Assembly: GCF_036507355.1 (NCBI RefSeq)
Contig: NZ_AP027877.1
Reading direction: 5' to 3' (one strand)
Length of the DNA stretch: 64,000 bases
DNA from: Escherichia coli
GTDB taxonomy: Bacteria > Pseudomonadota > Gammaproteobacteria > Enterobacterales > Enterobacteriaceae
Shown here: positions 3,069 to 41,800 of the stretch, piece by piece
How positions within the stretch are numbered: position 1 is the first letter of the stretch
Layout of the letters: every line of letters begins with the position of its first letter
Position numbers and translations under genes: made by a program
Notes under the pieces: generated by a model
The model's database searches: none
The model's input: the letters and a program-made list of their open reading frames with translations, nothing else
Told to the model about the DNA's origin: nothing

Positions 3069-3084
3069 CATTTTCGCCTCTGAT

Positions 3085-4809
<1,725 letters not shown>

Positions 4810-15875: not shown

Positions 15876-17465
15876 ATGCAACAACGTCGTCCAGTCCGCC
15901 GCGCTCTGCTCAGTGTTTCTGACAAAGCCGGTATCGTCGAATTCGCCCAGGCACTTTCCGCACGCGGTGTGGAGCTGCTGTCTACAGGGGGCACTGCCCG
16001 TCTGTTAGCAGAAAAAGGTCTGCCGGTAACCGAAGTTTCCGATTACACCGGTTTCCCGGAGATGATGGATGGACGCGTGAAGACCCTACATCCGAAAGTA
16101 CATGGTGGCATTCTGGGCCGTCGCGGTCAGGACGATGCCATTATGGAAGAACATCAGATCCAGCCTATCGATATGGTGGTTGTTAACCTGTATCCGTTCG
16201 CCCAGACCGTGGCCCGTGAAGGCTGCTCGCTGGAAGATGCGGTTGAGAACATCGATATCGGCGGCCCGACCATGGTGCGCTCCGCCGCTAAGAACCATAA
16301 AGATGTCGCAATCGTGGTGAAGAGCAGCGACTACGACGCCATTATTAAAGAGATGGATGCCAACGAAGGATCGCTGACGCTTGCAACCCGTTTCGACCTC
16401 GCCATCAAAGCCTTCGAACACACTGCCGCCTACGACAGCATGATTGCCAACTACTTCGGCAGCATGGTTCCGGCTTACCACGGTGAAAGCAAAGAAGCCG
16501 CCGGTCGCTTCCCACGCACGCTGAACCTGAACTTCATTAAGAAGCAGGATATGCGTTACGGCGAGAACAGCCACCAGCAGGCTGCCTTCTATATAGAAGA
16601 GAATGTGAAAGAAGCCTCCGTTGCTACCGCAACCCAGGTTCAGGGTAAAGCCCTCTCTTATAACAACATCGCCGATACCGATGCGGCGCTGGAGTGCGTG
16701 AAAGAGTTCGCCGAGCCGACATGTGTGATTGTGAAGCACGCCAACCCTTGCGGCGTGGCTATCGGCAATTCCATTCTTGATGCTTACGATCGCGCGTACA
16801 AAACCGACCCAACCTCCGCATTCGGCGGCATCATTGCCTTTAACCGCGAGCTGGATGCGGAAACCGCACAGGCCATCATTTCTCGTCAGTTTGTCGAAGT
16901 GATTATTGCGCCTTCCGCCAGCGAAGAAGCCCTGAAAATCACCGCCGCCAAGCAGAACGTACGCGTTCTGACCTGCGGTCAGTGGGGCGAGCGTGTTCCG
17001 GGTCTTGATTTCAAACGCGTGAACGGCGGTCTGCTGGTTCAGGATCGTGACCTGGGGATGGTCGGTGCGGAAGAACTGCGCGTCGTCACCCAACGTCAGC
17101 CGACCGAACAGGAACTGCGTGATGCGCTGTTCTGCTGGAAAGTGGCGAAGTTCGTGAAATCCAATGCTATCGTCTATGCCAAAAACAATATGACCATCGG
17201 TATTGGCGCGGGCCAGATGAGCCGCGTGTACTCCGCGAAAATTGCCGGTATTAAAGCTGCCGATGAAGGTCTGGAAGTGAAAGGTTCCTCTATGGCCTCC
17301 GATGCATTCTTCCCGTTTCGTGACGGTATTGATGCTGCCGCTGCCGCAGGCGTGACCTGTGTGATCCAGCCTGGCGGTTCTATTCGTGATGACGAAGTGA
17401 TTGCCGCTGCCGACGAGCACGGTATTGCAATGCTCTTCACCGATATGCGCCACTTCCGCCATTAA
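15876..17465 (+). CDS. purH: Bifunctional AICAR transformylase / IMP cyclohydrolase (529 aa)
   Basis: ORF translation [54 protein letters not shown]. Confidence 0.95.
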
Positions 17466-17476
17466 TGGAGCGACAG

Positions 17477-18766
17477 ATGAAAGTATTAGTGATTGGTAAC
17501 GGCGGGCGCGAGCACGCGCTGGCCTGGAAAGCGGCCCAGTCGCCGCTCGTTGAAACGGTTTTTGTTGCTCCGGGTAATGCAGGCACTGCACTGGAACCTG
17601 CGCTGCAAAACGTCGCCATCAATGTGACCGATATTCCGGCACTGCTGAGCTTTGCGCAGAATGAAAAAATTGACCTGACCATCGTTGGCCCGGAAGCGCC
17701 ACTGGTGATTGGCGTCGTTGACGCGTTCCGCGCAGCAGGTTTGAAAATATTCGGACCGACTGAGGGCGCCGCGCAACTCGAAGGTTCTAAAGCGTTTACC
17801 AAGGATTTCCTGGCACGCCACCACATCCCAACAGCGGAATACCAGAACTTCACCGAGATTGAGCCTGCGCTGGTGTATCTGCGCGAGAAAGGTGCACCGA
17901 TCGTTATCAAAGCAGACGGTCTGGCGGCGGGTAAAGGCGTAATCGTCGCGATGACACTCGAAGAAGCCGAAGCGGCCGTTCACGACATGCTGGCGGGTAA
18001 CGCTTTTGGCGACGCAGGTCACCGCATTGTTATCGAAGAATTCCTCGATGGCGAGGAAGCGAGCTTTATTGTGATGGTTGACGGCGAACACGTGTTACCG
18101 ATGGCCACCAGTCAGGATCATAAACGCGTGGGTGATAAGGACACCGGGCCAAACACAGGCGGAATGGGCGCTTACTCTCCTGCGCCGGTAGTGACTGATG
18201 AAGTTCATCAGCGCACGATGGAGCGCATCATCTGGCCAACCGTGAAAGGCATGGCAGCGGAAGGTAACACGTATACCGGTTTTCTGTATGCGGGCCTGAT
18301 GATCGACAAACAGGGCAATCCGAAGGTTATCGAATTCAACTGCCGCTTTGGCGATCCGGAAACCCAGCCGATTATGCTGCGCATGAAGTCCGATCTGGTT
18401 GAGCTTTGCCTGGCGGGCTGTGAAGGCAAGCTGGACGAAAAAAAATCCGAGTGGGATGAACGCGCATCGCTAGGTGTGGTGATGGCTGCGGGCGGTTATC
18501 CGGGTGATTATCGCAAGGGCGATGTGATCCACGGCCTGCCGCTGGAAGAAGTGGCAGGCGGCAAAGTGTTCCACGCGGGCACAAAACTGGCGGATGACGA
18601 GCAGGTGGTAACCAGCGGCGGGCGCGTACTGTGCGTCACCGCGCTGGGTCATACCGTGGCAGAAGCGCAGAAACGCGCCTACGCCTTAATGACCGATATC
18701 CACTGGGATGATTGCTTCTGCCGGAAAGATATCGGTTGGCGCGCCATCGAACGCGAGCAGAACTAA
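17477..18766 (+). CDS. purD: Phosphoribosylamine-glycine ligase (429 aa)
   Basis: ORF 17465..18766 contains MKVLVIGNGGREHALAWKAAQSPLVETVFVAPGNAGTA; start taken at MKVLV (ATG 17477), 12 bp after purH stop. Confidence 0.94.
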   Translation: MKVLVIGNGGREHALAWKAAQSPLVETVFVAPGNAGTALEPALQNVAINVTDIPALLSFAQNEKIDLTIVGPEAPLVIGVVDAFRAAGLKIFGPTEGAAQLEGSKAFTKDFLARHHIPTAEYQNFTEIEPALVYLREKGAPIVIKADGLAAGKGVIVAMTLEEAEAAVHDMLAGNAFGDAGHRIVIEEFLDGEEASFIVMVDGEHVLPMATSQDHKRVGDKDTGPNTGGMGAYSPAPVVTDEVHQRTMERIIWPTVKGMAAEGNTYTGFLYAGLMIDKQGNPKVIEFNCRFGDPETQPIMLRMKSDLVELCLAGCEGKLDEKKSEWDERASLGVVMAAGGYPGDYRKGDVIHGLPLEEVAGGKVFHAGTKLADDEQVVTSGGRVLCVTALGHTVAEAQKRAYALMTDIHWDDCFCRKDIGWRAIEREQN

Positions 18767-20088
18767 CGCGACAGTTTTGCCAATAGCGTTTTGCGCGTGA
18801 TCCCTAACTGACGGGCGGCTTCGGTTTTGTTGCCGCCCGTTTTCTCCAGTGCCGCCAGAATCACTTCTTTTTCGACTTCCACCAGCGGCTGAATATCCTG
18901 ACTTTGCCCCAGCGGGATCGGCGTACCGGCAATCGCCAGCGGCAGCTCGCGTTCGGAAATATATTCCCCGGTCAGCAGCACCACCGCCCGTTCCACCGCG
19001 TTTTCCAGTTCACGAATATTTCCCGGCCAGTCGTAGTGGATCAGCAAATCCATCGCCTGTGGCGTAAAGCCTTTTACCGCCTTGCGATTACGCTCGGCAA
19101 AGCGCTGAAGAAAATGGCCAGCCAGCAGAGGGATATCTTCCCTCCGTTGCCGCAGCGATGGTACTTCAATCGCCACCACATTCAGGCGATAGTAGAGATC
19201 CTGGCGAAAACGCCCGGCATTCACCTCTGCGGCAAGATCGCGATGGGTCGCCGCAATCAGCCGGACATCAACCGAGATAGTCTGGTTGCTACCGACACGC
19301 TGAACTTCGCGCTCCTGAATCGCACGCAGCAGACGCACCTGCATCATCGGCGAGATATCGCCAATTTCATCGAGAAACAGCGTGCCGCCGTCCGCCTCAA
19401 CAAAGCGCCCTTCCCGGCGTTTATCGGCTCCGGTAAACGCCCCTTTTTCGTGACCGAACAATTCAGATTCCAGCAAGGATTCGTTAAGTGCCGCACAGTT
19501 GAGCGTTACCAGCGGTTTTTCGCTACGTGCGCTACTGGCGTGAATCGCCTTGGCGACCAGCTCTTTACCGGTGCCGGAATCGCCGTGGATCAGCACCGTG
19601 GCTTCCGATGGCGCGACGAGGGAGATTTCACTGAGCAGGTGTTGCATCGCCGGGCTTTTACCGACCATACCGAACTGGCTGGCAGTCACCGCAGGTGTTT
19701 CAGCATCAATACTGTGTGTATGCGCGAGCGCCTTTTCCAGCGTCGCCTGTAGGTTATCGAAATCCAGCGGCTTGATGAGATAATCCAGCGCCCCAGTTTT
19801 CAGTGCCTCTACCGCCGTCTCGACGCTGGAGTACGCAGTCATAATCAGCACCGGAATTGCCGGGTTTAACGCTTTGATCTCTTTCAGCGTGGCGATGCCG
19901 TCCATCTCCGCCATTCGCACATCGCAAAGCACAAGATCAAAAACCTGTTCCCGCACCTGCTCCAGCGCCTGTCGCCCGCTGTTCGCCAGCGCGACGTTAT
20001 AGCCCCAGCCTCGCAGTAAAGCCTGCAAAATAGTGCAGTGGCTAATGTCATCATCCACCACCAGAATATCGATATTATCGTGCGTCAT
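18763..20088 (-). CDS. zraR: Sigma54-dependent response regulator ZraR/HydG (441 aa)
   Basis: ORF translation [44 protein letters not shown]... with [11 protein letters not shown]+ motif; ATG overlaps zraS stop (ATGA). Confidence 0.94.
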
Positions 20089-20278
20089 CCTTGTGGGTCC
20101 TTACGCGTAATATTGACCGGAAGCCAGAGGGTGAACGTTGCGCCTTTTCCCTTCTGGCTTGCGACCTGAATTGTACCACCGTGTTGTTCAACAATATTAT
20201 GCACGACCGCCAGCCCCAATCCGGTGCCTTCGGCTTTGGTGGTGAAGTACGGAGTGAAGATGGCTTCAAGCTGATCTG
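20085..20278 (-). pseudogene. zraS: zraS 3' fragment (C-terminal ~61 codons of the sensor kinase) separated from the rest by IS1
   Basis: Reverse-complement translates [61 protein letters not shown], carrying the HATPase G2 box GTGLGL; in frame with the 5' part once IS1 and one duplication copy are removed. Confidence 0.85.
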
Positions 20279-20293
20279 GGTAATGACTCCAAC

Positions 20294-20797
20294 TTATTGA
20301 TAGTGTTTTATGTTCAGATAATGCCCGATGACTTTGTCATGCAGCTCCACCGATTTTGAGAACGACAGCGACTTCCGTCCCAGCCGTGCCAGGTGCTGCC
20401 TCAGATTCAGGTTATGCCGCTCAATTCGCTGCGTATATCGCTTGCTGATTACGTGCAGCTTTCCCTTCAGGCGGGATTCATACAGCGGCCAGCCATCCGT
20501 CATCCATATCACCACGTCAAAGGGTGACAGCAGGCTCATAAGACGCCCCAGCGTCGCCATCGTGCGTTCACCGAATACGTGCGCAACAACCGTCTTCCGG
20601 AGCCTGTCATACGCGTAAAACAGCCAGCGCTGGCGCGATTTAGCCCCGACATAGCCCCACTGTTCGTCCATTTCCGCGCAGACGATGACGTCACTGCCCG
20701 GCTGTATGCGCGAGGTTACCGACTGCGGCCTGAGTTTTTTAAGTGACGTAAAATCGTGTTGAGGCCAATGCCCATAATGCGGGCTGTTGCCCGGCAT
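20294..20797 (-). CDS. insB: IS1 transposase InsB (167 aa; expressed as InsAB' fusion by -1 frameshift)
   Basis: ORF translation [64 protein letters not shown]... Confidence 0.93.
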
Positions 20798-20991
20798 CCA
20801 ACGCCATTCATGGCCATATCAATGATTTTCTGGTGCGTACCGGGTTGAGAAGCGGTGTAAGTGAACTGCAGTTGCCATGTTTTACGGCAGTGAGAGCAGA
20901 GATAGCGCTGATGTCCGGCGGTGCTTTTGCCGTTACGCACCACCCCGTCAGTAGCTGAACAGGAGGGACAGCTGATAGAAACAGAAGCCAC
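20716..20991 (-). CDS. insA: IS1 InsA (91 aa)
   Basis: ORF translation [91 protein letters not shown]. Confidence 0.93.
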
Positions 20992-21046
20992 TGGAGCACC
21001 TCAAAAACACCATCATACACTAAATCAGTAAGTTGGCAGCATCACC

Positions 21047-22238
21047 GCTGATCTGCCGCAATTCCCTTACCGCTGTCGGTAACGCTGATTTTCACGCCCG
21101 CGCCGCTTTCGCTGGCCGTCACGCTAATCACGCCATGCTGACCAATCGCCTGAATAGCATTGAGATAGAGATTCAACAGGACCTGAGTCAGCCTGTCCGG
21201 ATCGGCCTGAATTTCCGGTAATGTGTCGTTGGCGGTAAAGCGTAACTGGATCTCCCGGCTGTTTGCATCCTGGCTTACCAGCTGTAATGAGTGGTTAATC
21301 AGAGTGTTGAGGTCCACCGCCTGCAAAGCCAGATGCGTTGGCTTAACCAGTTCCAGCAGCTCGCTTACCACGCGGTTTAATCGGTCAGCTTCTTTCGCCA
21401 TCACCTGCGCCAGTTGATGCGCTTCTCCCCCTGCAGGCGCGCGCTCGGCAAAGTATTTCGCCAGTCCTTTAATCGAGGAAAGTGGGTTACGGATTTCGTG
21501 GGCAACGCCTGCCGCAAGATGCCCCAGCGCCACCAGCTTCTCTTTGCGCTTCATTTCATCTTGTAGAAGCTGGCGCGAGCGCAGATAGCGGCGATACCAG
21601 AAGAATGACAATACGCTTGCCAGCAAGACCGTCGCCAGGGCGAAGAGGATAATCAGGGTGTTTCTCTGCTCACGATCTTCGGCACTCACAATATTACTGG
21701 CGTCGAAAGCGATGAAAATTGCTTGTGGTGTCGCGGCATACTGCTGCATATGGCGCATCCGGTGCATTCCAGCAGCAAACATCGGTTGAAACTGGCGATA
21801 AATTTCCAGAACAGGCTCGCCGTCTGCGCTATCGATCCGCCGCCACACTTCTTCATCTCCCGGATGTAACTGCTGCATTTCCTGCGGGGAATAAAGCTGT
21901 TTTCCCACCATGCCGGAGTTGCTATGCATCACGATTGTTCCTTGTTCATCCGTGACCGCAAACCAACGTACTCCAGGCTGCCCGGCTATTTCTTCCAGTA
22001 AGGCCTGCTGCTGCGCATGATGCATGCGCATCCCCATGCCGACGCGCGAGCCGGATTCAAGAGCGCGAATAAGTACACTGCCTTTTTCCAGCAGCGTTTG
22101 TCTGGCGGCGGCAGTCTCGCGCCCATAATCGCGAATCACCGTCACCGCAAACAACCCTACCAGCCCAACAATGACCACGGGGAGGATCGCGCTTAACCAT
22201 TTAGCTAAGGAGTCTTTAGAACGTTGCATAAAACGCAT
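21047..22238 (-). pseudogene. zraS: zraS 5' portion (397 codons) truncated by IS1; stop codon supplied by IS1 terminal repeat
   Basis: ORF 21042..22238 (MRFMQRSKDSLAKWLSAILPVVIVGL...HEIRNPLSSIKGL...VTDSGKGIAADQR*) ends at a TGA inside the IS1 end; H-box, N-box and G1 box present, G2 box missing. Confidence 0.88.
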
Positions 22239-22269
22239 CTTCTTCTTTGCCTGTTCATCCCTTTTTACC

Positions 22270-22285
22270 AGCAGAAATCATGCCA
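22270..22285 (-). promoter_or_regulatory. Candidate sigma54 promoter for zraSR
   Basis: Minus-strand TGGCATGATTTCTGCT has GG and GC at canonical -24/-12 spacing, ~30 nt upstream of zraS start. Confidence 0.55.
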
Positions 22286-22336
22286 TCTTTTATCGCCACC
22301 GACTCTGCGCTGTAACACAAAGACTTAAGTTTCAAT

Positions 22337-22382
22337 GAGTAAAAATGACTCGCTACCCACAGCAGGCGAGTCATTTTTACTC
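22337..22382. promoter_or_regulatory. 17-bp-arm inverted repeat, probable ZraR enhancer-binding site
   Basis: gagtaaaaatgactcgc-N12-gcgagtcatttttactc, perfect inverted repeat between the divergent zraP and zraS sigma54 promoters. Confidence 0.65.
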
Positions 22383-22424
22383 GTTTATCATGCCAGATTG
22401 CCCGTCATATCAGCGTTTCGTTGT

Positions 22425-22440
22425 TGGCACGGAAGATGCA
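22425..22440 (+). promoter_or_regulatory. Sigma54 promoter for zraP
   Basis: TGGCACGGAAGATGCA matches TGGCACG-N4-TTGCA at -24/-12 spacing, 36 bp upstream of zraP ATG. Confidence 0.7.
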
Positions 22441-22475
22441 ATACCCGAAGTAAGACAACCACTGGAAGATTAACC

Positions 22476-22895
22476 ATGAAACGGAACACGAAAATTGCCC
22501 TGGTGATGATGGCGCTTTCAGCAATGGCGATGGGATCGACATCTGCATTTGCTCACGGCGGACACGGTATGTGGCAGCAAAATGCCGCGCCTTTGACCAG
22601 CGAACAACAGACAGCGTGGCAGAAAATCCATAATGACTTTTACGCTCAAAGCAGCGCACTGCAACAGCAACTGGTGACGAAGCGTTATGAATACAATGCC
22701 CTGTTAGCCGCGAACCCACCGGATAGCAGCAAAATTAACGCGGTCGCCAAAGAGATGGAGAATTTGCGTCAGTCGTTAGATGAGTTACGGGTGAAACGGG
22801 ATATTGCGATGGCTGAAGCGGGTATTCCGCGCGGTACCGGAATGGGTTACGGCGGCTGCGGTGGTGGCGGTCATATGGGTATGGGCCACTGGTAA
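22476..22895 (+). CDS. zraP: Zinc-responsive periplasmic chaperone ZraP (139 aa with signal peptide)
   Basis: ORF 22335..22895 contains MKRNTKIALVMMALSAMAMGSTSAFAHGGHGMWQQ... and Gly/His-rich C-terminus GYGGCGGGGHMGMGHW; start taken at MKRNT. Confidence 0.9.
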   Translation: MKRNTKIALVMMALSAMAMGSTSAFAHGGHGMWQQNAAPLTSEQQTAWQKIHNDFYAQSSALQQQLVTKRYEYNALLAANPPDSSKINAVAKEMENLRQSLDELRVKRDIAMAEAGIPRGTGMGYGGCGGGGHMGMGHW

Positions 22896-38885: not shown

Positions 38886-41800
38886 TTACTCGTCTTCCAG
38901 TTCGATGTTGATACCCAGCGAACGAATCTCTTTCAACAATACGTTGAAGGATTCTGGCATGCCCGGCTCCATCTGATGGTTGCCGTCCACGATGTTTTTA
39001 TACATCTTAGTACGACCGTTCACGTCATCAGACTTAACGGTGAGCATTTCCTGCAGGGTGTATGCTGCGCCGTATGCTTCCAGCGCCCACACTTCCATCT
39101 CCCCGAAACGCTGACCACCGAACTGTGCCTTACCACCCAGCGGCTGCTGAGTAACCAGGCTGTAAGAACCGGTGGAACGCGCGTGCATCTTGTCGTCGAC
39201 CAGGTGGTTCAGTTTCAGCATGTACATGTAACCAACGGTTACCGGACGTTCGAACTGTTCACCAGTGCGGCCGTCGTACAGGCGGATCTGACCAGAAGTC
39301 GGCAGGTCGCCAAGTTTCAGCAGCTCTTTAATTTCTGCTTCTTTCGCACCGTCGAACACCGGCGTTGCGATTGGCATACCTTTGCGCAGGTTTTCAGCCA
39401 GACGCATAACTTCTTCATCGCTGAAGGTACTCAGGTCAACTTTCTGACGAACGTCAGCGCCCAGATCGTACGCACGCTGGATGAATTCGCGCAGTTTCGC
39501 GACTTCCTGCTGCTGTTTCAGCATGGCGTTGATCTTGTCGCCGATACCTTTCGCAGCCATACCCAGGTGGGTTTCGAGGATCTGACCGATGTTCATACGA
39601 GACGGTACGCCCAGCGGGTTCAGTACGATGTCTACCGGCGTACCGTTTTCATCGTAAGGCATATCTTCGATCGGGTTGATCTTAGAAATTACACCTTTGT
39701 TACCGTGACGACCTGCCATCTTGTCACCAGGCTGGATACGGCGTTTAACCGCCAGATATACCTTAACAATCTTCAGCACGCCCGGTGCCAGATCGTCGCC
39801 CTGGGTGATTTTGCGGCGTTTCGCTTCGAGTTTCTTCTCGAACTCGTGTTTCAGTTCGTCATACTGCTCAGCCAGCTGTTCCAGCTGATTTTGTTTCTCT
39901 TCGTCGGTCAGGCCCAGCTCCAGCCAGCGATCGCGCGGCAGTTTGTCGAGCTTCTCAGCTTCAACGCCACCGGCTACCAGCACAGCACGGATACGGCTGA
40001 ACAGACCCGCTTCGAGGATCTGCAGTTCTTCAGACAGGTCTTTCTTCGCCTGTTTGAGCTGCATTTCTTCGATTTCCAGCGCACGTTTGTCTTTTTCTAC
40101 GCCATCGCGAGTAAAGACCTGAACGTCGATAACCGTACCGGATACACCGTTTGGTACGCGCAGAGAAGAGTCTTTAACGTCAGAGGCTTTCTCACCGAAG
40201 ATCGCACGCAGCAGTTTTTCTTCTGGGGTCAGCTGAGTTTCACCTTTCGGCGTTACCTTACCAACCAGAATGTCGCCACCGGTCACTTCCGCACCAATGT
40301 AAACGATACCGGATTCATCCAGTTTGGAGAGCGCAGCTTCACCCACGTTCGGGATGTCAGCGGTGATCTCTTCCGGCCCCAGCTTGGTGTCACGGGACAC
40401 ACACGCCAGTTCCTGAATGTGGATGGTGGTGAAACGGTCTTCCTGAACAACACGCTCGGATACGAGGATGGAGTCTTCGAAGTTGTAACCATTCCACGGC
40501 ATGAACGCTACGCGCATGTTCTGACCAAGCGCCAGTTCACCGAGGTCGGTGGACGGACCGTCTGCCAGCACGTCGCCACGTTCAACCGGTTCACCCAGAG
40601 ACACACACGGCATCTGGTTGATACAGGTGTTCTGGTTAGAACGGGTGTATTTGGTCAGGTTGTAGATGTCGATACCAGCTTCGCCCGGATACATCTCGTC
40701 TTCGTTAACTTTGATAACGATACGGGAAGCATCCACGTACTGAACAACACCACCACGTTTAGCTACCGCAGTTACACCGGAGTCAACGGCAACAGCACGT
40801 TCCATACCAGTACCAACCAGCGGCTTATCAGCACGCAGAGTCGGAACGGCCTGACGTTGCATGTTCGCACCCATCAATGCACGGTTGGCGTCATCGTGTT
40901 CCAGGAACGGGATCAGGGACGCACCGACGGATACCACCTGCTGGGTGGATACGTCCATGTAGTCAACCTGGTCGCGGCTGAACAAGCTGGATTCGCCTTT
41001 GCTACGGCAAGTTACCAGGTCTTCTACGAAGTGGCCTTCTTCATCCAGGTTGGAGTTCGCCTGGGCGATAACGTAGTTGCCTTCTTCGATAGCAGACAGG
41101 TAGTGAATTTCGTCAGTTACAACACCGTCGGTCACTTTACGATACGGAGTCTCAAGGAAGCCGTATTCGTTAGTCTGTGCGTACACGGACAGAGAGTTGA
41201 TCAGACCGATGTTCGGACCTTCAGGAGTTTCGATTGGACATACGCGACCGTAGTGAGTCGGGTGTACGTCTCGAACTTCGAAGCCTGCACGTTCACGGGT
41301 CAGACCGCCTGGGCCGAGTGCGGAGATACGACGTTTGTGCGTAATCTCAGACAGCGGGTTGTTCTGGTCCATAAACTGAGACAGCTGGCTGGAACCGAAG
41401 AACTCTTTCACTGCTGCGGAAATCGGCTTGGCGTTGATCATATCCTGAGGCATCAGGGTATCCAGATCGCCCAGAGACAGACGCTCTTTCACCGCACGCT
41501 CTACACGTACCAGGCCAACACGGAACTGGTTTTCCGCCATTTCGCCAACGGAACGGATACGACGGTTGCCGAGGTGGTCGATATCATCGACTTCGCCTTT
41601 ACCGTTACGGATATCGATGAGCTTTTTCATAACATCAATGATGTCGTCTTTGCTCAGGATACCGGAACCTTCGATTTCTTCGCGCAGCAGAGAACGGTTG
41701 AACTTCATACGACCAACCGCAGACAAGTCATAGCGATCTTCGGAGAAGAACAGGTTCTCAAACAGGCTTTCAGCTGCTTCACGAGTCGGCGGCTCGCCAG

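What the first reader, a model, noticed from the sequence alone, without database searches (positions are those of the whole stretch)
22239..22475. Divergent sigma54 promoters flanking a perfect 17-bp inverted repeat in the zraP-zraS intergenic region
The intergenic region carries a sigma54 -24/-12 element for zraP (TGGCACGGAAGATGCA, 22425-22440), a weaker one for zraSR on the other strand (TGGCATGATTTCTGCT, 22270-22285), and between them a perfect inverted repeat gagtaaaaatgactcgc-N12-gcgagtcatttttactc (22337-22382) that fits a ZraR enhancer site. The regulatory architecture is intact even though the kinase gene is disrupted by IS1, so zraP expression would depend on kinase-independent ZraR activity.
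Basis: partly seen in the sequence, partly recalled or inferred. Interest (0 to 1): 0.25.

Follow-up and report, generated by a model that had tools for sequence, protein, structure and literature searches.

The report
Known zraP–zraSR sigma-54 control region
This is the already well-described control region between the zinc/envelope-stress genes zraP and zraSR of E. coli: two back-to-back sigma-54 promoters sharing one ZraR activator-binding enhancer. It is intact here next to a recent IS1 insertion that cuts the sensor kinase gene, so the finding is correct but ordinary.

Summary
They are base-for-base identical to E. coli K-12.

In K-12 the two -24/-12 motifs are published sigma-54 ChIP-seq sites. 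The strongest ZraR ChIP-exo peak lies inside the inverted repeat.

An alignment of 17 sequences from Escherichia, Citrobacter and Salmonella shows four main conserved islands in an otherwise free-drifting spacer:
- the two promoters;
- two 15-bp sites, GRGTAAAAATGACYC and its reverse complement.

The two sites sit 31 bp apart centre to centre in 21 of 22 sequences. The 12-nt sequence between them is not conserved, and the arms show no covariation. The repeat is therefore a pair of protein-binding sites, not a hairpin.

IS1 (768 bp, 9-bp target duplication) truncates ZraS after residue 397 of 458, removing the ATP lid. zraR is intact but lies downstream of IS1 in the same operon. Near-identical relatives (99.96-100%) have an uninterrupted zraS, so the insertion is recent. 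The intact control region therefore says nothing about its continued use.

Novelty: already known. Interest: low.

The parts
18763..20088 (-). zraR, an intact sigma-54 enhancer-binding response regulator (441 aa)
   Evidence: Translation. Pfam finds Response_reg, Sigma54_activat, AAA_lid_14 and HTH_8. Its ATG overlaps the original zraS stop as ATGA.
20085..20269 (-). Orphaned 3' fragment of zraS, encoding the F and G2 boxes (GTGLGL) of the ATP-binding domain
   Evidence: Sequence read; alignment to K-12 ZraS.
20270..20278 (.). Target-site duplication GCTGATCTG, copy 1
   Evidence: Relatives with the empty site carry one copy.
20279..21046 (-). IS1 (768 bp). insA and insB lie on the - strand, the same direction as zraS and zraR.
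   Evidence: Terminal repeats read. The right-end repeat (IRR) matches exactly. ORFs of 91 and 167 aa are present. IS1's own promoter-like site is at 21039-21012.
21047..21055 (.). Target-site duplication GCTGATCTG, copy 2
21042..22238 (-). Truncated zraS: 397 native residues plus Arg, then a stop inside IS1. It keeps the sensor, transmembrane and HisKA regions and the first half of HATPase_c.
   Evidence: In one search, HATPase_c profile positions 2-53 of 111 are matched, against 2-110 in K-12.
22270..22285 (-). zraSR sigma-54 promoter (-24 TGGCAT, -12 CTGCT); predicted start near 22259
   Evidence: Identical to sigma-54 ChIP-seq site OS39. 14 of 16 columns are invariant across 17 sequences.
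22302..22321 (.). Smaller conserved block (ACCCTG ... ACACAA) between the zraS promoter and ZraR site 1; role unknown
   Evidence: Alignment A2.
22337..22351 (.). ZraR site 1, GAGTAAAAATGACTC. It is the core of the left arm of the inverted repeat (22337-22353).
   Evidence: 11 of 15 columns are invariant. Lies under the ZraR ChIP-exo peak in K-12.
22354..22365 (.). 12-nt spacer between the arms. Its length is conserved but its sequence is not.
   Evidence: 1 of 12 columns is invariant. Site spacing is 31 bp in 21 of 22 sequences.
22368..22382 (.). ZraR site 2, GAGTCATTTTTACTC. It is the core of the right arm of the inverted repeat (22366-22382).
   Evidence: 13 of 15 columns are invariant. Lies under the ZraR ChIP-exo peak in K-12.
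22425..22440 (+). zraP sigma-54 promoter (-24 TGGCAC, -12 ATGCA); predicted start near 22451
   Evidence: Identical to sigma-54 ChIP-seq site OS38. 13 of 16 columns are invariant.
22476..22895 (+). zraP, a periplasmic CpxP-like chaperone and modulator (139 aa)
   Evidence: Translation. Pfam Metal_resist. The exact protein is widespread.

Best explanation
The 237-bp spacer is the canonical zraP/zraSR control region. RNA polymerase carrying sigma-54 sits in closed complexes on two divergent -24/-12 promoters. Between them lies one enhancer made of two 15-bp ZraR sites in inverted orientation, 31 bp apart centre to centre, which is about three helical turns and puts them on the same DNA face. Phosphorylated ZraR dimers bound at the two sites nucleate the active ATPase oligomer. 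That oligomer loops over to either promoter and drives open-complex formation. The result is strong zraP expression and weaker, autoregulated zraSR expression.

Shown: the sequence elements, their conservation, the fixed spacing, and in vivo occupancy in K-12 of identical sequences by sigma-54 and ZraR. Inferred: the two-dimer-to-hexamer assembly and the looping, by analogy with NtrC.

In this strain a recent IS1 insertion removes the ATP lid of ZraS and sits upstream of zraR. Zinc signalling through ZraS is most likely lost. ZraR supply is probably lowered by IS1 polarity and by loss of translational coupling. Any remaining zraP expression would need ZraS-independent phosphorylation of whatever ZraR is still made.
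For: The motifs and the repeat are at the stated coordinates. All elements are identical to K-12.

Sigma-54 ChIP-seq motifs are TTGGCACGGAAGATGCA for zraP and ATGGCATGATTTCTGCT for zraS (PMC4591121). The Salmonella equivalents are bound and induced (PMC3844500).

For ZraR, genomic SELEX found the zraP/zraSR spacer as the single high-affinity target (PMC8249747). ChIP-exo peak_9 (signal/noise 73) at K-12 4201786-4201818 lies inside the repeat at 4201782-4201827. In a zraR deletion, zraP falls by log2 12.7 and zraS by 3.2 under zinc.

In the phylogenetic footprint, 51 of 62 element columns are invariant against 16 of 175 in the rest of the spacer. Site spacing is 31 bp in 21 of 22 sequences. The site 2 to zraP promoter distance differs by exactly 11 bp between Escherichia and Citrobacter/Salmonella.

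ZraR has a Fis-type HTH_8 domain and a sigma-54 interaction domain. No sigma-70-like promoter is predicted in the spacer. IS1 anatomy and the ZraS truncation are shown. The empty site in 99.96-100% identical relatives is shown.
Against: No footprint, transcription start mapping or expression data exist for this strain. The original footprinting paper (Leonhartsberger et al. 2001, J Mol Biol 307:93) is not in the library, so its description of binding to 'two inverted repeats' is quoted from memory only.

No convincing IHF site lies between the enhancer and either promoter: there are only 2-mismatch matches, 4 against 1.4 expected. How a loop of roughly 50-60 bp closes is therefore unexplained.

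ZraR-independent basal zraS expression in LB (log2 -0.02) implies another promoter that was not located.
Confidence: 0.92

Rival explanations
1. The 17-bp inverted repeat acts as a nucleic-acid structure, such as a cruciform, an RNA hairpin or a terminator between divergent genes, rather than as protein-binding sites.
For: The repeat folds strongly as single-stranded DNA (-18.8 kcal/mol, z -8.6).
Against: It lies upstream of both predicted transcription starts, so neither promoter transcribes it. There is no covariation between the arms: 151 of 500 shuffles reach the observed score, and one pair is broken in 10 of 17 sequences. What is conserved is sequence, not pairing. There is no T-run and no terminator call. 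Rfam gives only sub-threshold noise. ZraR occupies the repeat in vivo in K-12.
Confidence: 0.02
2. In this strain the control region is a silent relic. IS1 abolishes ZraS kinase activity and, through polarity, starves the cell of ZraR. zraP is then essentially off and not zinc-inducible, and the elements look intact only because too little time has passed for decay. This rivals the reader's picture of kinase-independent ZraR activity driving zraP.
For: Relatives without IS1 are 99.96-100% identical over 8 kb and share the spacer 237/237, so the insertion is recent. zraR has no predicted promoter of its own between IS1 and its ATG. The ATGA overlap couples zraR translation to zraS. IS1 insertions are classically polar (established knowledge). 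zraP is strictly ZraR-dependent.
Against: Some read-through from IS1 or from basal zraS transcription could still supply ZraR. ZraR can be phosphorylated by small-molecule donors: acetyl phosphate is listed as an effector in PMC8249747, and a 'phosphoryl donor' is mentioned in PMC5391612. Loss of ZraS could also remove a phosphatase activity. None of this was measured.
Confidence: 0.55
3. The repeat is a single 46-bp palindromic operator bound by one symmetric oligomer of ZraR or of another regulator, not two independent dimer sites.
For: In Escherichia the two arms are perfect reverse complements. The whole enhancer has one two-fold axis at 22359/22360.
Against: Each arm carries its own internal dyad, GAGT-N7-ACTC. 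In Citrobacter and Salmonella the two sites diverge independently, for example GGGT..ACCC in site 1 against GAGT..ACTC in site 2. The spacer sequence is free. The 31-bp spacing matches paired-site enhancers of the NtrC type.
Confidence: 0.05

Closest known systems
E. coli K-12 zraP-zraSR (hydHG) intergenic region: ZraR-dependent divergent sigma-54 promoters (Leonhartsberger et al. 2001; RegulonDB; PMC4591121; PMC7657598)
   Same: The spacer is the same length (237 bp). Both -24/-12 elements are identical, as are both arms of the inverted repeat, and the gene order is the same.
   Different: There are 16 lineage-specific substitutions in the spacer, all outside the two promoters and the two ZraR sites (one, at 22304, falls in the smaller conserved block). 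The ZraS periplasmic domain is a different allele. IS1 lies in zraS.
NtrC enhancer at glnAp2: two dyad sites roughly 30 bp apart, upstream of a sigma-54 promoter (textbook knowledge, not re-checked here)
   Same: Paired dyad-symmetric sites about three helical turns apart. They are bound by a response-regulator enhancer-binding protein with a Fis-type HTH, and activation works by looping.
   Different: The site sequence differs. The ZraR enhancer is closer to its promoters: site centres lie about -76 and -107 from zraP and about -85 and -116 from zraS. It also serves two divergent promoters.
NorR enhancer in the norR-norVW spacer: three sites with core GT-(N7)-AC (PMC2831303)
   Same: The invariant core of each ZraR site, GT-AAAAATG-AC or GT-CATTTTT-AC, fits the same GT-N7-AC frame. 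It is also a divergent regulator/target spacer with a sigma-54 promoter.
   Different: ZraR has two sites rather than three. NorR has a documented IHF site, and none is convincing here. Only one of the nor promoters is sigma-54 dependent.
IS1 insertional gene disruption
   Same: 768 bp long, with terminal inverted repeats, a 9-bp target duplication, and intact insA and insB.
   Different: Nothing unusual. The exact junction is absent from 5,426 complete E. coli genomes. Strain A37 has an independent IS1 in zraR.

Membership tests
Sigma-54 (-24/-12) promoter | GG and GC dinucleotides exactly 10 bp apart within TGGCAC-N5-TTGCW, oriented towards the gene | tested here: met
   Both motifs fit TGGCAY-N6-TGCW, one on each strand and each pointing at its gene.
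Sigma-54 (-24/-12) promoter | Occupied by sigma-54 holoenzyme | not testable with these tools
   Not measurable for this strain. Identical sequences in K-12 lie under sigma-54 ChIP-seq peaks OS38 and OS39 (PMC4591121), and the spacer is a sigma-54 genomic SELEX target (PMC8743547).
Sigma-54 (-24/-12) promoter | Motif conserved at the orthologous position in related genera | tested here: met
   14 of 16 and 13 of 16 columns are invariant in 17 sequences from Escherichia, Citrobacter and Salmonella.
Sigma-54 (-24/-12) promoter | Transcription starts about 12 nt downstream of the GC and depends on rpoN and an activator | not testable with these tools
   Starts at about 22451 and about 22259 are inferred from the 25-nt and 21-nt 'Distance' values in the sigma-54 ChIP-seq table, read here as the distance from transcription start to gene start. 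ZraR dependence in K-12 comes from RNA-seq.
Enhancer (upstream activating sequence) of a sigma-54 enhancer-binding protein | Dyad-symmetric sites roughly 70-150 bp upstream of the sigma-54 promoter | tested here: met
   GAGT-N7-ACTC occurs twice in the 64-kb window, both times here. Site centres lie 51.5 and 82.5 bp from the zraP GG, and 60.5 and 91.5 bp from the zraS GG.
Enhancer (upstream activating sequence) of a sigma-54 enhancer-binding protein | Paired sites with fixed, helically phased spacing | tested here: met
   Spacing is 31 bp centre to centre in 21 of 22 sequences although the spacer sequence is unconserved. The indel between site 2 and the zraP promoter is 11 bp.
Enhancer (upstream activating sequence) of a sigma-54 enhancer-binding protein | Bound by the cognate activator | not testable with these tools
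   In K-12 with the identical sequence, the ZraR ChIP-exo peak at 4201786-4201818 lies inside the repeat, and genomic SELEX found this spacer as the single target.
Enhancer (upstream activating sequence) of a sigma-54 enhancer-binding protein | Cognate activator with an AAA+ sigma-54 interaction domain and a C-terminal HTH encoded nearby | tested here: met
   ZraR (441 aa) has Response_reg, Sigma54_activat and HTH_8 domains.
IS1 insertion | About 768 bp, terminal inverted repeats, 9-bp target duplication, insA and insB | tested here: met
   The empty site is seen in relatives.
Structured RNA or terminator hairpin (considered and rejected) | Base pairing maintained by compensatory changes; transcribed; T-run | tested here: not met
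   No covariation, no terminator call, and no Rfam family at threshold.

The most novel reading that the evidence does not exclude
The two-fold symmetric enhancer is shared by two competing sigma-54 promoters. Helical phasing (31 bp between the sites, and an 11-bp indel tolerated only as a whole turn) together with unequal promoter strength would set the ZraP:ZraSR ratio. In this strain IS1 uncouples zraR from that feedback, so the truncated sensor lacking its ATP lid and the residual ZraR turn zraP into a zinc-blind gene driven by acetyl phosphate or cross-talk.
Probability: 0.12. Interest if true: 0.3.

Novelty: already known. Interest (0 to 1): 0.08.

Why it matters
It matters little beyond annotation. 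The region is a textbook-type sigma-54 enhancer/promoter unit characterised in E. coli K-12 since 2001 and re-confirmed by genome-wide ChIP studies.

The comparative analysis adds a compact consensus for the ZraR site, GRGTAAAAATGACYC, in two copies in inverted orientation 31 bp apart, plus evidence for helical phasing.

For this strain the practical consequence is that the Zra envelope-stress and zinc response is probably disabled by a recent IS1 hit. That is ordinary insertion-sequence-driven gene loss.

Tried and rejected
1. My first sigma-54 pattern had the wrong spacing (N7) and found nothing. It was corrected to N6.

2. The original footprinting paper (PMID 11243806) is not held. Full-text searches for the site sequence, and for ZraR or HydG with 'inverted repeat', returned nothing useful. 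ChIP-exo supplementary coordinates were used instead.

3. A search for an IHF site found only 2-mismatch matches near background, and they are not conserved.

4. The hairpin or RNA reading was rejected.

5. I looked for the same IS1 junction elsewhere. No complete E. coli genome has it, and the exact truncated ZraS protein is not on record.

6. I briefly suspected a non-coli Escherichia source, because purD is only 91% identical to any E. coli. This was rejected: the window is 96-99% identical to K-12 overall, and the divergence is confined to local patches.

7. The third sigma-54-like motif, at 39775-39790 in rpoB, is not a reported site and is consistent with chance.

Full report
**Observation.** The window carries zraR (18763-20088, -), zraS (from ATG 22238, -) and zraP (ATG 22476, +). 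The finding's coordinates, 22239-22475, are exactly the 237-bp intergenic spacer.

TGGCACGGAAGATGCA is at 22425-22440 (+) and TGGCATGATTTCTGCT at 22270-22285 (-). The pattern TGGCAY-N6-TGCW occurs three times in 64 kb against 0.71 expected. Two of the three lie in this spacer, each oriented towards its gene.

The inverted repeat has perfect 17-nt arms (22337-22353 and 22366-22382) with 12 nt between them, and extends to 20 nt at 95%. Each arm also holds its own dyad, GAGT-N7-ACTC. These are the only two matches to that pattern in the window.

**What it is.** The window is E. coli-like, 96-99% identical to K-12 across the syntenic region. The spacer aligns without gaps to K-12 MG1655. Both sigma-54 elements and both repeat arms are identical to K-12.

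In K-12, sigma-54 ChIP-seq reports peaks OS38 (zraP, motif TTGGCACGGAAGATGCA, enrichment 39) and OS39 (zraS, ATGGCATGATTTCTGCT, enrichment 9). The table also gives 'Distance' values of 25 and 21 nt (PMC4591121). I read these as the distance from transcription start to gene start, which places the starts near 22451 and 22259 in the window.

Salmonella has the equivalent motifs, bound and induced 16-fold (zraP) and 3.7-fold (hydHG) by a promiscuous activator (PMC3844500). Genomic SELEX found the zraP/zraSR spacer as the single high-affinity ZraR target (PMC8249747).

ZraR ChIP-exo gives its strongest peak (signal/noise 73) at K-12 4201786-4201818 (PMC7657598 supplement). I mapped the repeat to K-12 4201782-4201827 and verified the sequence there, so the peak lies inside the repeat. 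A second peak, at 4201673-4201698, corresponds to window 22466-22491, just downstream of the zraP promoter. This could reflect contact of ZraR with promoter-bound polymerase, which is inference.

In a zraR deletion under zinc, zraP falls by log2 12.7 and zraS by 3.2. In plain LB, zraS is unchanged at log2 -0.02.

**Independent comparative test.** I collected zraP loci from one genome per species using the ZraP protein only, so the selection is unbiased with respect to the DNA elements. I then aligned 17 spacers from five Escherichia lineages, eleven Citrobacter and Salmonella arizonae.

Conservation is concentrated in four islands:

| Element | Invariant columns |
|---|---|
| zraS promoter | 14 of 16 |
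| ZraR site 1 | 11 of 15 |
| ZraR site 2 | 13 of 15 |
| zraP promoter | 13 of 16 |
| Rest of the spacer | 16 of 175 |
| 12-nt gap between the arms | 1 of 12 |

The site consensus is GRGTAAAAATGACYC and its reverse complement, with an invariant core of GT-N7-AC.

Centre-to-centre spacing is 31 bp in 21 of 22 sequences and 32 bp in the remaining one. The distance from site 2 to the zraP -24 GG is 50.5-51.5 bp in Escherichia and 61.5-62.5 bp in Citrobacter and Salmonella. That difference of 11 bp is one helical turn. The distance from site 1 to the zraS GG is 58.5-60.5 bp.

There is no covariation between the arms: 151 of 500 shuffles reach the observed score, and one pair is broken in 10 of 17 sequences. 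In Citrobacter the two sites differ from each other. The repeat is therefore two protein-binding sites in inverted orientation, not a hairpin. Rfam and terminator scans are negative.

**Mechanism.** ZraR here is intact, with receiver, sigma-54 interaction (AAA+) and Fis-type HTH domains.

The best-supported model is the NtrC-type one. Two ZraR dimers sit on same-face sites about three turns apart. On phosphorylation they nucleate the active oligomer, which contacts closed sigma-54 complexes at either promoter by looping. The two-fold symmetry of the enhancer (axis at 22359/22360) suits divergent promoters.

The elements, their spacing and the K-12 occupancy are shown. The oligomer assembly and the looping are inferred.

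No sigma-70-like promoter is predicted in the spacer. No convincing IHF site was found, so how the short loop is closed remains open. The ZraR-independent basal zraS expression reported in K-12 implies another promoter that I did not locate.

**The IS1 context.** IS1 occupies 20279-21046 (768 bp) with the 9-bp duplication GCTGATCTG. Its transposase genes lie on the same strand as zraS.

ZraS ends after residue 397 of the 458-aa allele, plus one Arg. This is just after the G1 box DSGKG. The F and G2 boxes (GTGLGL) are stranded downstream. Autokinase activity should be lost.

zraR follows in the same operon, and its ATG overlaps the zraS stop as ATGA. No sigma-70-like promoter is predicted between IS1 and zraR. 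IS1 insertions are classically polar (established knowledge), so ZraR supply is probably reduced as well.

Four public assemblies and read sets encode the identical ZraR and share the spacer 237/237. They are 99.96-100% identical over about 8 kb and have an uninterrupted 458-aa zraS with a single GCTGATCTG. The insertion is therefore recent, and the intact state of the promoters says nothing about selection since the insertion.

The lineage's spacer differs from mainstream E. coli at 16 positions. None falls in the two promoters or the two ZraR sites, which together cover about 66 of the 237 bp. My own estimate of the chance of that is about 0.007. This fits purifying selection on the elements before the insertion.

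**Comparison and verdict.** This is the known zraP/zraSR regulatory region, described in E. coli by Leonhartsberger et al. 2001. That paper is not held in the library, so my recollection that it reports phosphorylation-stimulated binding to a region with two inverted repeats is from memory.

It works like the NtrC enhancer at glnAp2. Its GT-N7-AC core is shared with NorR sites (PMC2831303).

The closing inference is logically right but incomplete. Novelty: already known. Interest: low.

Noticed in passing
window 21500-22250 (zraS codons ~40-190): The ZraS periplasmic sensor domain is dimorphic in E. coli. The window's allele matches at 95% or better in 4,183 of 5,419 complete genomes. The other 1,236, including K-12-type strains, match only at 60-80% over part of the segment. 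The cytoplasmic part of the protein is 100% identical to K-12. K-12, the strain used for most Zra work, therefore carries the minority sensor allele.
   Followed up: partly
window 17000-18700 (purD/purH): This patch is sharply divergent. The best match among 5,420 E. coli genomes is 91.2%, and identity to K-12 falls to 84-88% in 250-bp bins while the flanks are 98-100%. The same patch occurs in the four rare assemblies that share this ZraR. It is probably a recombination import from a divergent Escherichia.
   Followed up: partly
window 22302-22321: A fifth, smaller conserved block (ACCCTG ... ACACAA) lies between the zraS -24 element and ZraR site 1, about -43 to -62 from the predicted zraS start. 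Its role is unknown. This lineage has T at 22304 where at least 90% of the aligned sequences have C.
   Followed up: no
window 22277-22285 and 22387-22395: ATCATGCCA, the reverse complement of the -24 half TGGCATGAT, is repeated just right of ZraR site 2. The second copy has no -12 partner and is present only in some Escherichia. It is probably without function.
   Followed up: partly
window 22466-22491: This corresponds to a second ZraR ChIP-exo peak in K-12 (4201673-4201698, signal/noise 34) over the zraP start codon. It could mark cross-linking of ZraR to promoter-bound polymerase through the loop.
   Followed up: no
window 39775-39790 (-): A third match to the sigma-54 pattern, TGGCACCGGGCGTGCT, lies in the sense strand of rpoB. 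It is not among the published sigma-54 ChIP-seq sites and is consistent with chance (0.71 expected).
   Followed up: yes
L036 (E. coli A37, NZ_CP195776.1) 594-2696: This strain has an independent IS1 insertion in the zraSR operon, at the 5' end of zraR. The operon has been hit by IS1 more than once.
   Followed up: partly
window 3075-3095: arpA, present in K-12 between aceK and iclR, is absent from the window: the alignment jumps from L024 12797 to 10310.
   Followed up: no
window 22335-22895 (+): An in-frame upstream ATG at 22335 gives a mechanical 186-aa ORF that runs through the ZraR sites into zraP. Some public annotations also call a 42-aa 'hypothetical protein' inside this spacer. Both are likely annotation artefacts.
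   Followed up: no
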